Below are positions 20,461 through 20,781 of a stretch of 64,000 nt of DNA, in pieces. Position 1 is the first letter of the stretch. Each line of letters opens with the position of its first letter. The stretch is from Candidatus Latescibacterota bacterium. Its GTDB lineage: Bacteria > Latescibacterota > UBA2968 > GCA-2709665. A program made the translations under genes and the position numbers. The stretch lies in the NCBI GenBank assembly GCA_965203805.1, contig OZ241917.1, positions 4,384,001 to 4,448,000 of the forward strand, in the 5' to 3' direction. The notes beneath the pieces are model-generated. The model was not told the origin of the DNA, did no database searches, and saw only the letters and a program-made list of their open reading frames with translations.

Positions 20461-20781
20461 TCAAATCCCTGCGGTCATTATCCGTAATATCATGGAAAAG
20501 TCATCGGGTTGGTCGGGGTCTTCCGCAATGCGGTTTACACGCACTACCCCACATGCCTCGCATCGGTGTTCAATCTGAAGACCCTTTCCGCTTTTTCGCC
20601 GCACACCGACCGGAGCCATCAGACCGCCACACTCGCTGGCTCGGTCTCCCATGCTCTCGTCGACGTGCTTCGAGTACAAACAGCGGGGACAGTGGTTCCG
20701 ATAACTCCCGCTGGCCAGCGGATACACTTCCGCCTGACAGAATTCGCAAACGAATCCAGTATTCTCATCTTTCCTGCCCAT
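20461..20781 (-). CDS. RNHCP domain-containing protein (putative Zn ribbon)
   Basis: FVCEFC...YRNHCPRCLYSKHVD...GDRASECGGLM...HRCEACG...NRIAEDP. Confidence 0.93.
   Translation of the reverse strand: MGRKDENTGFVCEFCQAEVYPLASGSYRNHCPRCLYSKHVDESMGDRASECGGLMAPVGVRRKSGKGLQIEHRCEACGVVRVNRIAEDPDQPDDFSMILRIMTAGI

What the first reader, a model, noticed from the sequence alone, without database searches (positions are those of the whole stretch)
20461..20781. RNHCP protein as a candidate 30S assembly or rescue effector
SEEN: intact 106-aa Cys/His-rich RNHCP protein directly under the leader. KNOWN: the family is uncharacterised; I recall it often lying next to rsgA-like 30S GTPase paralogs in other bacteria (unverified; no rsgA in this window). 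INFERENCE: the protein acts on the small-subunit head. It could itself be the ligand of the mimic, giving autoregulation by target mimicry, which would reveal its rRNA binding site.
Basis: inference. Interest (0 to 1): 0.7.

Follow-up and report, generated by a model that had tools for sequence, protein, structure and literature searches.

The report
Zinc protein tied to ribosome head
A small zinc-binding protein of unknown function sits behind an RNA leader that copies the core of the ribosome's small-subunit head, and its sister proteins are fused or coupled to a ribosome-assembly GTPase, so it most likely binds that part of the ribosome and tunes its own production through the copy.

Summary
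Window 20461-20781 (-) is an intact 106-aa RNHCP protein (Pfam E 9.4e-31), directly behind a ~305-nt leader.

- The leader scores as bacterial 16S rRNA (60 bits, head helices h28-30 and h41-43). It lies directly upstream of RNHCP in 46 of 80 related loci from 9 phyla, plus a chlamydial plasmid. It was found nowhere else in the flanks or in this genome. 42 of its 52 pairs covary.
- It ends in a Shine-Dalgarno-sequestering hairpin whose base competes with the closing helix of the mimic.
- A sister subfamily (type B) is fused or translationally coupled to an RsgA paralogue. In a published RsgA-30S structure the RsgA zinc domain touches h29/h30, helices that the leader copies.

Against a core role:
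- The window's own subfamily is almost never next to rsgA (1 of 80 loci).
- The gene is absent from 14 of 14 congeners and lies on a ~2.1-kb accessory insert.
- The protein is not basic (pI 6.3).
- The mimic also resembles the minimal S7-binding fragment.

No binding was tested. Best reading: a 30S-head-binding factor that autoregulates through an rRNA mimic. I found neither function nor leader described.

The parts
20461..20781 (-). RNHCP gene, type A: 106 aa with two predicted Cys/His metal sites (C12, C15, C31, C34 and H39, C51, C74, C77)
   Evidence: ORF; Pfam PF12647 at E 9.4e-31; conserved ligands; AF2 model with pLDDT 88, pTM 0.78. The assignment of ligands to the two sites is inferred from conservation.
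20782..21086 (-). Conserved structured 5' leader of the RNHCP mRNA
   Evidence: Profile nhmmer hit in the own genome at C1:4405086-4404780, 249.6 bits. The same leader sits directly upstream of RNHCP in 46 of 80 loci. 52 pairs, 42 with compensatory changes.
20877..21028 (-). 16S-like core of the leader: copies of h29, h30 (closed by a short loop where h31-h40 would be), a truncated h41, h42 and h43
   Evidence: Rfam SSU_rRNA_bacteria, 60.4 bits, model positions 926-1370 with 274-nt and 33-nt deletions. 69 of 99 aligned bases are identical to the genome's own 16S positions 1293-1392. Helix names come from recalled E. coli numbering, anchored on G945/A946/G1338 as quoted in PMC5499641.
21063..21067 (-). 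5' strand (UAGGG) of P1, the helix that closes the mimic domain
   Evidence: Alignment columns 31-35 pair with columns 353-359. All five pairs are canonical in 35 of 39 leaders. Pair 32/358 shows 13 double changes.
20826..20830 (-). Switch segment CCCUG, which is either the 3' strand of P1 or the base of the SD-sequestering hairpin
   Evidence: In the tail-only MFE at least 3 of these 5 bases pair downstream in 37 of 39 leaders. The full-length MFE prefers the downstream pairing in 30 of 39 and P1 in 3 of 39. Three-way letters are listed.
20819..20824 (-). Anti-SD (CUCCUU) inside the leader
   Evidence: It pairs with the SD in the RNAfold result for the window tail, -28.7 kcal/mol, and analogous hairpins form in the other leaders.
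20783..20793 (-). Shine-Dalgarno GGAGG (20793-20789) and the spacer CAGGG (20787-20783) that pairs with the switch segment
   Evidence: Sequence; folds.
20361..22450 (.). About 2.1-kb accessory segment holding RNHCP, the leader, a 173-aa membrane ORF and a DUF4258 pair. It is missing at the syntenic site of same-genus genomes.
   Evidence: DNA comparison with G163, G164, G169 and G157: the flanks match, this stretch does not. The PF12647 search finds 0 of 14 same-genus genomes.

Best explanation
The gene encodes an intact type-A RNHCP protein. It is about 12 kDa, has a near-neutral charge and two zinc-type sites, and its confident predicted fold has no solved relative that I could find.

Most likely it is an accessory factor that docks on the core of the 30S head: the junction of 16S helices h28/h29/h30 with h41-h43, on the P-site face where the zinc domain of RsgA also touches. 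Its ~305-nt mRNA leader is a folded miniature of that rRNA core, followed by a hairpin in which an internal anti-SD sequesters the Shine-Dalgarno. The 5-nt segment CCCUG can either close the mimic (helix P1) or lengthen the SD hairpin. Occupancy of the mimic is therefore coupled to ribosome access. When free RNHCP exceeds its ribosomal targets it would bind the mimic and change its own translation (autoregulation by target mimicry).

Shown here:
- the gene and its family;
- leader conservation, covariation and exclusive association with RNHCP;
- the mutually exclusive pairing;
- fusion or operon coupling of the sister subfamily with RsgA paralogues.

Inferred:
- that RNHCP, and not an r-protein, is the ligand;
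- that it binds real 16S;
- the direction of control;
- the biological role (late head maturation or checkpoint, or stress-time silencing or rescue of 30S).
For: 1. The leader is an rRNA mimic. Rfam SSU model, 60.4 bits, E 7e-16, with clean deletions of h31-h40 and most of h41. The equivalents of G1338/A1339 (GGAA, G170-A172) are invariant in the 39 aligned leaders.

2. The leader is a real structured RNA. 94.7% of cells are paired against 76.6% in shuffles. 42 of 52 pairs have changes on both sides, against 29.6+-2.2 in shuffles (0 of 500 reach the observed value) and 13-24 in the slid controls.

3. The association is exclusive. The leader was found in 46 of 80 RNHCP loci (9 phyla by record title), always ending at the RNHCP start and never elsewhere in the +-6 kb flanks. 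In this genome there is one copy, plus a weak hit on the true 16S. There is one copy each in G001 and G003. It also occurs on the Protochlamydia plasmid pPNK. On the protein tree the leader-bearing rows include the deepest type-A branches, and leaderless forms fall in about 6 derived clades.

4. Translational switch. An SD-sequestering hairpin forms in the leaders, and the P1 3' strand also pairs downstream in 37 of 39. No intrinsic terminator was found.

5. Independent link to the 30S subunit. RsgA_N+GTPase+RNHCP fusions: P0228, P0231, P0239/P0273 and P0224. RNHCP is followed by rsgA with overlapping or abutting ORFs in Vibrio pOCN014 and in L114, L131, L133 and L136. 7 of 16 strong type-B loci in the Clostridia sample are adjacent or fused.

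6. The RsgA Zn-domain bridges to the head at G1338 (h29) and G945-A946/A1229-C1230 (h30) (PMC5499641, passages). These are helices kept in the mimic.

7. Identity between phyla is high (55-66%), as expected for a partner of a universally conserved target.
Against: - No binding of any kind was tested.
- The protein is not basic (pI 6.27; 14 K+R against 15 D+E), unlike typical rRNA binders.
- The mimic matches what I recall of the minimal S7-binding fragment. A 236-nt fragment of the 3' major domain binds S7 (PMC3548175, passages), so S7 or other head proteins could be the ligand.
- About six helices is a lot of RNA for a 12-kDa protein.
- Type-A loci are not near rsgA (1 of 80 within 6 kb) or r-protein genes (0 of 257 neighbour ORFs).
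- In Lachnospiraceae, RsgA-paralogue presence does not track RNHCP presence (3 of 14 against 26 of 137 genomes).
- The gene is dispensable and patchy: 0 of 14 congeners and 1 truncated remnant in 21 same-family genomes, 14 of 151 Lachnospiraceae, 1 of 14 control genomes.
- RNHCP is also fused to GIY-YIG nucleases. Earlier unchecked scan notes place it in radical-SAM cassettes, so it may be a generic binding module.
- MFE folding favours the SD-closed form without P1, so the sign of regulation is open.
Confidence: 0.5

Rival explanations
1. The leader is bound by head ribosomal proteins (S7 as the primary binder, perhaps with S9, S13 or S19) and not by RNHCP. It would then report an excess of free head proteins over correctly folded 16S and switch RNHCP translation accordingly. 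RNHCP would be a downstream effector of that imbalance.
For: The mimic keeps the h28/h29/h43 and h29/h30/h41/h42 junction sequences. A 236-nt minimal fragment of the 3' major domain suffices for S7 binding at about 20 nM (PMC3548175, passages); its coordinates are recalled. The size and the near-rRNA primary sequence of the mimic fit recognition by proteins evolved for the real site. RNHCP itself is not basic. MFE folds suggest that ligand-stabilised P1 would open the base of the SD hairpin, i.e. induction, which suits a sensor better than a repressor.
Against: The leader was found only in front of RNHCP and never in front of other genes in the loci and genomes searched. In all r-protein leaders I recall, the ligand is encoded downstream. 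An S7 sensor would be expected near rpsG or other assembly genes as well. The RsgA fusions already tie RNHCP itself to the head.
Confidence: 0.22
2. The mimic senses something else that normally binds this rRNA pocket, such as a head-binding antibiotic or another small ligand or factor. RNHCP would then be an inducible ribosome-protection or rescue protein carried on accessory DNA.
For: The setting is accessory and prone to horizontal transfer. Drug-type neighbours occur: an APH-family kinase and a nucleotidyltransferase in the window; FBP_C-domain proteins (recalled as the FusB-type EF-G-binding family) and an APH fragment next to tandem RNHCP genes on a Streptomyces plasmid; TetR, MarR, AraC, MerR, GNAT and MFS neighbours elsewhere. 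Some type-B genes carry an erm-like uORF/anti-SD element (3 of 12 loci; scan note e1-5199985).
Against: I know of no antibiotic whose primary site is h29/h30/h41-43. The neighbour classes are common genes and were not shown to be enriched. There were no PADLOC hits and no Rfam riboswitch match. It does not explain the RsgA fusions.
Confidence: 0.07
3. RNHCP is a generic zinc nucleic-acid or peptide-binding module with no specific ribosomal role, and the 16S-like leader is a relic or serves only mRNA stability.
For: GIY-YIG+RNHCP fusions exist. Earlier unchecked scan notes report RNHCP in radical-SAM/SPASM peptide cassettes of CPR/DPANN organisms. Neighbourhoods are heterogeneous.
Against: A relic would not keep 42 covarying pairs and many invariant junction bases across 9-10 phyla. 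It would not travel with the gene onto a plasmid. It would not keep an SD switch. The repeated coupling to RsgA paralogues is specific.
Confidence: 0.06

Closest known systems
Autogenous ribosomal-protein leaders that mimic rRNA (for example S15/rpsO, S8/spc, S7/str, L1, L20, S6:S18; recalled. For PMC7247131 and PMC3895269 I saw only the search listing and abstract starts)
   Same: A cis-acting 5' leader copies the rRNA binding site in sequence and fold and overlaps or occludes the ribosome-binding site. The expected logic is feedback by competition between mRNA and rRNA.
   Different: The regulated gene is not a known ribosomal protein (no such Pfam or NCBIfam hit). The mimic is a multi-helix domain of about 230 nt, close enough to 16S to pass the gathering score of the Rfam SSU model. 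This is much larger than the one- or two-helix mimics I recall. The gene is accessory, not core. Binding is untested.
C-terminal zinc-binding domain of the 30S assembly GTPase RsgA/YjeQ
   Same: A small Cys/His zinc module. In the cryo-EM model it bridges to the 30S head at G1338 (h29) and h30 (PMC5499641, passages), helices that are copied in the RNHCP leader. RNHCP domains occur C-terminal to that very domain in fusion proteins.
   Different: No detectable homology (hhalign probability 0.5%). In the fusions RNHCP is appended after the complete RsgA Zn knuckle through a Lys-rich linker of about 50 aa, so it adds to that domain and does not replace it.
Minimal S7-binding fragment of the 16S 3' major domain (D3LH, 236 nt)
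   Same: The same part of 16S (lower 3' major domain: h28-h30 and h41-h43) with the upper head helices removed (PMC3548175, passages; exact coordinates recalled).
   Different: That is a laboratory construct. This is a natural mRNA leader with extra non-rRNA helices (P1, P2, a variable hairpin) and an SD switch.
Leader-peptide/anti-SD translational attenuators (ermC type)
   Same: Competing helices that hide or free the SD. A uORF plus SD/anti-SD repeats precede some type-B RNHCP genes (3 of 12 loci; scan note e1-5199985).
   Different: The window's leader shows no conserved uORF in the alignment. Its sensor is a folded rRNA-like domain.

Membership tests
RNHCP domain family (Pfam PF12647) | Match to the family HMM above the curated cut-off | tested here: met
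   106.1 bits against a cut-off of 24, E 9.4e-31, residues 8-90.
RNHCP domain family (Pfam PF12647) | R-N-H-C-P motif and the conserved Cys/His set | tested here: met
   R28-N29-H30-C31-P32 are present, and C12, C15, C34, H39, C51, C74 and C77 are conserved.
Autogenous rRNA-mimic leader systems (ribosomal-protein-leader type) | Leader resembles an rRNA protein-binding site in sequence and secondary structure | tested here: met
   Rfam SSU hit at 60.4 bits; covariation supports the h29, h30, h41, h42 and h43-like helices.
Autogenous rRNA-mimic leader systems (ribosomal-protein-leader type) | Leader structure controls access to the ribosome-binding site | tested here: met
   A conserved SD/anti-SD hairpin shares five bases with P1. 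This is predicted pairing only, with no expression data.
Autogenous rRNA-mimic leader systems (ribosomal-protein-leader type) | The encoded protein binds both the leader and the rRNA site | not testable with these tools
   No RNA-protein modelling or assay is available here.
Autogenous rRNA-mimic leader systems (ribosomal-protein-leader type) | The encoded protein is a ribosomal protein | tested here: not met
   No r-protein family in Pfam or NCBIfam; pI 6.27; absent from 14 of 14 congeners.
RsgA/YjeQ GTPase family | Circularly permuted GTPase domain (PF03193) | tested here: not met
   The window ORF has only the RNHCP domain. The genome's single RsgA lies 690 kb away. Fusions exist in other lineages.
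RsgA C-terminal Zn-domain | Detectable sequence-profile homology | tested here: inconclusive
   hhalign of A1 against A3 gives probability 0.5%. Absence of signal does not exclude very distant kinship.
Small-molecule riboswitch | Match to a described riboswitch family, or a demonstrated ligand | tested here: not met
   No Rfam 15 family other than SSU rRNA at E<=1 in 19000-23000. Ligand binding is not testable here.
Known anti-phage defence or toxin-antitoxin proteins | Match to a PADLOC model | tested here: inconclusive
   No PADLOC hit for type A or type B RNHCP. The library is limited to systems described by 2023.
Any solved protein fold | Structural neighbour in the PDB | tested here: inconclusive
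   Model with pLDDT 88: Foldseek gives 0 hits at E<=0.001; VIA-align wide gives a best Z of 3.1, rmsd 3.2 over 49 residues. PDB sequence profile search: best E 0.24.

The most novel reading that the evidence does not exclude
RNHCP and its leader form a self-contained, horizontally mobile module. The protein is a so far unrecognised factor that binds the P-site face of the 30S head (h29/h30 with h41-43) and works at the same step as RsgA. Its mRNA carries the largest natural rRNA mimic I know of, a folded 'mini-head', which reports how much of the factor is unbound. If so, the leader hands over the rRNA binding site of a new family of 30S assembly or quality-control proteins present in at least ten phyla.
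Probability: 0.4. Interest if true: 0.8.

Novelty: new variant of a known kind. Interest (0 to 1): 0.72.

Why it matters
RNHCP is a widespread family: 1298 clusters at 50% identity match the profile. I found no published function for it and no solved relative.

Three things turn 'unknown zinc protein' into a sharply testable hypothesis:
- a covarying copy of the 16S head core sits in front of the gene;
- sister proteins are fused or coupled to an RsgA paralogue;
- published RsgA contacts fall on the same helices.

The hypothesis is that purified protein binds a defined 305-nt RNA and a defined patch of the 30S head. If it holds, it adds a new player to late 30S maturation or surveillance. It also provides a natural, independently folding mini-domain of the 16S head that could serve as a model RNA for head assembly. 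Finally, it extends regulation by rRNA mimicry from core ribosomal proteins to an accessory, horizontally spread factor.

Tried and rejected
- Fold matching. Two AF2 models (pLDDT 75.6 and 88.0) were searched with Foldseek/PDB and VIA-align wide. The best results were E 0.03 and Z 3.8/3.1, all weak zinc-ribbon or SH3/chromo-like matches. No functional inference was drawn.
- ESM Atlas: no usable hit.
- Homology of RNHCP to the RsgA Zn-domain: hhalign probability 0.5%.
- Complex prediction of a type-B RNHCP with its operon partner RsgA paralogue (alignments A6 and A5): 'no answer', score 0.00, controls not run. This is no evidence either way.
- Expression: no RNA holder was listed among 18 public runs.
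- Gene-neighbourhood survey of type A. I scanned 257 of 278 selected flanking ORFs from 75 of 80 loci. Before scanning I dropped 21 redundant alphaproteobacterial ORFs and all ORFs over 1200 aa. There were no r-proteins. Seven translation-related ORFs fell in 6 loci (GatB x2, PheS, PheT, ThrS, a tRNA_bind protein, SpoU methylase), which is about what chance would give.
- Co-occurrence of RsgA paralogue and RNHCP in Lachnospiraceae: no enrichment (3 of 14 against 26 of 137).
- 'Longer' word search for fusions: only 2 hits. The fusions came from the full HMM search.
- PADLOC and PHROGs: nothing meaningful.
- Pseudogene or relic 16S fragment: rejected because of the covariation and the cross-phylum conservation.
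- Recent copy of the host 16S: rejected, with only 69 of 99 bases identical.
- Promoter scan: one weak sigma-70-like site at 21305-21276 (-), not followed up.
- I did not build a covariance model. The profile-HMM search was already sensitive because primary sequence is so conserved.

Full report
OBSERVATION

The ORF is exactly as described: 20461..20781 on the minus strand, 106 aa, ATG start. A GGAGG Shine-Dalgarno lies at 20793-20789. It is a clear member of Pfam PF12647 (RNHCP; 106.1 bits, cut-off 24). It has no NCBIfam model. The protein has 7 Cys and 3 His and a pI of 6.27.

In 128 diverse relatives C31, H39, G45, R47 and C51 are invariant. F10, C12, C15, R28, N29, H30, P32, C34, L35, S37, D41, D46, G53, C74, C77 and D93 are at least 90% conserved. 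This suggests two metal sites, C12/C15/C31/C34 and H39/C51/C74/C77. It also suggests a conserved polar surface of R28, N29, H30, D41, D46, R47 and D93. The site assignment is my inference.

AlphaFold2 with the deep alignment gives a confident model (pLDDT 88.0, pTM 0.78). The N-terminal half is built from knuckles. It is followed by a three-stranded sheet (54-63, 67-74, 80-84) and a C-terminal helix (95-104). Neither Foldseek against the PDB (0 hits at E<=0.001) nor VIA-align against 48,161 chains (best Z 3.8 and 3.1) finds a convincing neighbour. A PDB sequence-profile search (best E 0.24) finds none either.

Searches for 'RNHCP' and 'PF12647' in the paper library returned nothing about the protein.

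THE LEADER

An E-value scan of Rfam 15 over 19000-23000 returned a single hit. Window 21028..20877 (-) matches the bacterial SSU rRNA model at 60.4 bits (gathering score 50). It covers model positions 926-1370, with a 274-nt deletion replaced by 8 nt and a 33-nt deletion replaced by 4 nt. By recalled E. coli numbering, anchored on the residues quoted in PMC5499641, this keeps h29, h30, a stub of h41, h42 and h43, plus the top of h28.

The genome has one true 16S gene and this one mimic. The mimic is only 69/99 identical to the host 16S over positions 1293-1392, so it is not a recent copy.

The search for related loci returned 80 RNHCP loci from named genomes. A single-sequence search and then a profile nhmmer search found the leader in 46 of them. 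In every case it ends at the RNHCP start, and it never occurs elsewhere in the +-6 kb flanks. L025 is a partial hit. L017/L023, L024/L026 and L058/L071 are near-duplicates. By record title the 46 loci come from Actinomycetota, Chloroflexota, Planctomycetota, Gemmatimonadota, Bacillota, Nitrospirota, Armatimonadota, Pseudomonadota and WOR-3. A tenth phylum, Chlamydiota, carries gene and leader on the mobilisable plasmid pPNK.

Most of the 34 leaderless loci have RNHCP abutting an upstream same-strand ORF.

An alignment of 39 leaders has 46 invariant columns. RNAalifold predicts 52 pairs, 42 of them with compensatory changes. With controls:
- 94.7% of cells are paired, against 76.6% in shuffles;
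- 42 pairs have double changes, against 29.6+-2.2 in shuffles (0 of 500 shuffles reach the observed value);
- the covariation score is 0.546, against at most 0.124 when partners are slid by 1-3 columns.

Beside the rRNA-like helices there is a closing helix P1 (columns 31-35 with 353-359; window 21067-21063 with 20830-20826). There is also a second non-rRNA helix (columns 55-68 with 279-294) and a variable hairpin.

THE SWITCH

The last 50-70 nt fold into a long hairpin in which an internal CUCC(UU) pairs with the SD. The five bases that form the 3' strand of P1 (CCCUG) also pair with the spacer between the SD and the AUG (CAGGG). P1 is fully canonical in 35 of 39 leaders. The downstream alternative uses at least 3 of the 5 bases in 37 of 39. 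Thermodynamic full-length folds prefer the downstream pairing in 30 of 39 and P1 in 3 of 39, and forcing P1 costs 0-15.5 kcal/mol. Column 358 changes together with column 32, and in a few cases also with its downstream partner.

No intrinsic terminator is present. Control is therefore most likely translational, with occupancy of the mimic coupled to the base of the SD hairpin. The sign of the effect cannot be told from folding alone.

THE LINK TO RsgA

- The genome's only RsgA is 690 kb away.
- tblastn finds an rsgA within 6 kb in 1 of 80 loci (L048).
- Pfam scans of 257 flanking ORFs (75 loci; 21 redundant ORFs and ORFs over 1200 aa left out) show no r-proteins. Seven translation-related ORFs in 6 loci are about what chance would give.

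The full HMM search (1298 representatives) included long proteins. Of the 25 I scanned, four are RsgA_N+RsgA_GTPase+RNHCP fusions, two are GIY-YIG+RNHCP, and the rest have no second Pfam domain. One fusion is annotated as RsgA of Bariatricus massiliensis and was seen on 66 contigs. It has a complete RsgA including its own zinc knuckle, then a Lys-rich linker, then RNHCP.

The fused domain belongs to a sister subfamily, type B. Type B proteins are about 141 aa with a basic N-terminus and a conserved C-terminal tail.
- In 151 Lachnospiraceae genomes, 14 carry RNHCP, 13 of them type B.
- None of 12 type-B loci has the leader, and one has an adjacent RsgA paralogue.
- In a sample of 401 Clostridia genomes, 38 have an RNHCP-like hit. 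Of the 16 strong type-B loci, 7 have the paralogue within 1.5 kb, one of them as a fusion.
- In L114, L131, L133 and L136 the two ORFs abut or overlap.
- In Vibrio coralliilyticus pOCN014 an annotated RNHCP gene overlaps a downstream annotated rsgA by 14 nt.

A tree of RsgA sequences places the Bariatricus fusion and the RNHCP-linked copies in one paralogue clade, apart from the canonical RsgA of the same genomes. Presence of that paralogue does not track presence of RNHCP in Lachnospiraceae (3 of 14 against 26 of 137).

WHY THE TWO LINES CONVERGE

[quoted passage not shown] Tyr299 approaches G1338 (h29), and Arg300 lies between G945-A946 and A1229-C1230 (h30). The density there is labelled h29/30 and S13. 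A domain tethered behind that zinc domain would reach the same face of the head. The type-A leader copies exactly these helices, and the GGAA holding the G1338/A1339 equivalents is invariant (G170-A172) in 39 leaders. RNHCP itself is not detectably homologous to the RsgA zinc domain.

WHAT SPEAKS AGAINST A CORE ROLE

- RNHCP was found in 0 of 14 same-genus genomes, in 1 of 21 same-family genomes and in 0 of 19 genomes of the sister family.
- The single family hit is a remnant of residues 1-51 without a leader.
- At the syntenic site of four congeners the flanks are present, but window ~20361-22450 is missing.
- Only Deinococcus among 14 control genomes has the family.
- The protein tree mixes phyla.

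The module is therefore accessory and horizontally spread. Its high conservation between phyla (55-66% identity) fits a universally conserved target.

RIVAL LIGANDS

The same part of 16S is the minimal S7-binding fragment (236 nt; PMC3548175, passages; coordinates recalled). RNHCP is not basic. S7 or a set of head proteins could therefore be what the leader senses.

A drug or small-ligand sensor is a long shot. It is prompted by resistance-type neighbours: an APH-family kinase and a nucleotidyltransferase in the window, and FBP_C proteins and an APH fragment beside tandem RNHCP genes on a Streptomyces plasmid. The erm-like uORF element before some type-B genes also prompts it.

EARLIER SCAN NOTES

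Earlier notes never mention a 16S mimic. They do report other translational devices at RNHCP genes: a leader-peptide switch and programmed -1 frameshifts. They also report radical-SAM cassette contexts. I treated these as leads only.

VERDICT

Function and leader appear undescribed in Rfam 15 and in the paper searches. The complex prediction gave no answer and no RNA-seq run was available. Nothing here shows binding.

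Noticed in passing
window 19825-20337 (-): A HAD-family hydrolase directly downstream of RNHCP appears split by a frameshift: a 170-aa N-terminal frame and a 77-aa frame carrying the Hydrolase_like C-terminus. Congeners have matching DNA here.
   Followed up: no
window 21853-22391 (-): A DUF4258 protein (108 aa) is preceded by an overlapping 71-aa ORF, which looks like a toxin-antitoxin-type pair. Together with a 173-aa membrane ORF (21335-21856) it lies on the same ~2.1-kb insert as RNHCP.
   Followed up: partly
window 17306-19309 (-): An APH-family phosphotransferase (E 1.4e-6) and a weak NTP_transf_2 nucleotidyltransferase lie 1.2-3 kb downstream of RNHCP, i.e. resistance-enzyme-like neighbours.
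   Followed up: no
window 22450-25003 (-): Two paralogous class I methyltransferases (276 and 280 aa) flank a sulfotransferase-like gene. Congeners carry two or three such methyltransferase copies in a rearranged order.
   Followed up: no
window ~16270-16488, ~14175-14269 and ~26180-26364: Short dispersed repeats. For example the ~219-nt stretch at 16270-16488 matches at least 8 places in the congener G163 at 91-92% identity. The other two stretches match many places in several congeners.
   Followed up: no
L105, L107, L109 (type-B RNHCP loci), about 120 nt upstream of the start: A conserved element with a tiny uORF (MEIVA in L107 and L109) and three SD/anti-SD-like segments (CCGGGAGG ... CCUCCC ... 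AGGAGG). This agrees with scan note e1-5199985. It was seen in 3 of 12 loci.
   Followed up: partly
L140, L143, L146, L147, L150 (Clostridia-class genomes of 0.9-2.3 Mb): Weaker RNHCP matches carry one in-frame TAA or TAG. This may correspond to the programmed -1 frameshifts reported in scan notes e1-1288807 and e1-844980.
   Followed up: no
L115, L116; L119:4494-5327: Tandem duplicated RNHCP genes in two Lachnospiraceae genomes and on a Streptomyces plasmid. On the plasmid they are flanked by two FBP_C treble-clef zinc-finger proteins, a Tn3 transposase fragment and integrases.
   Followed up: partly
L005-type loci (gut alphaproteobacteria; 19 rows in the tree): Conserved leaderless operon UDG - TPR+class I methyltransferase (576 aa, abutting RNHCP) - RNHCP - nitroreductase - TerC. 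Other methyltransferases abut RNHCP in L013, L074 and L076 (SpoU).
   Followed up: partly
L023 and L062: Probable mis-binned contigs. The 'Micrarchaeota' contig L023 is almost identical to the Bacillota contig L017. The 'Bacteroidaceae' contig L062 sits inside the gut alphaproteobacterial clade.
   Followed up: no
G010, G012, G033 (Lachnospiraceae): RsgA-paralogue hits lie in open frames of about 530 aa, much longer than RsgA, which suggests other C-terminal or N-terminal fusions.
   Followed up: no
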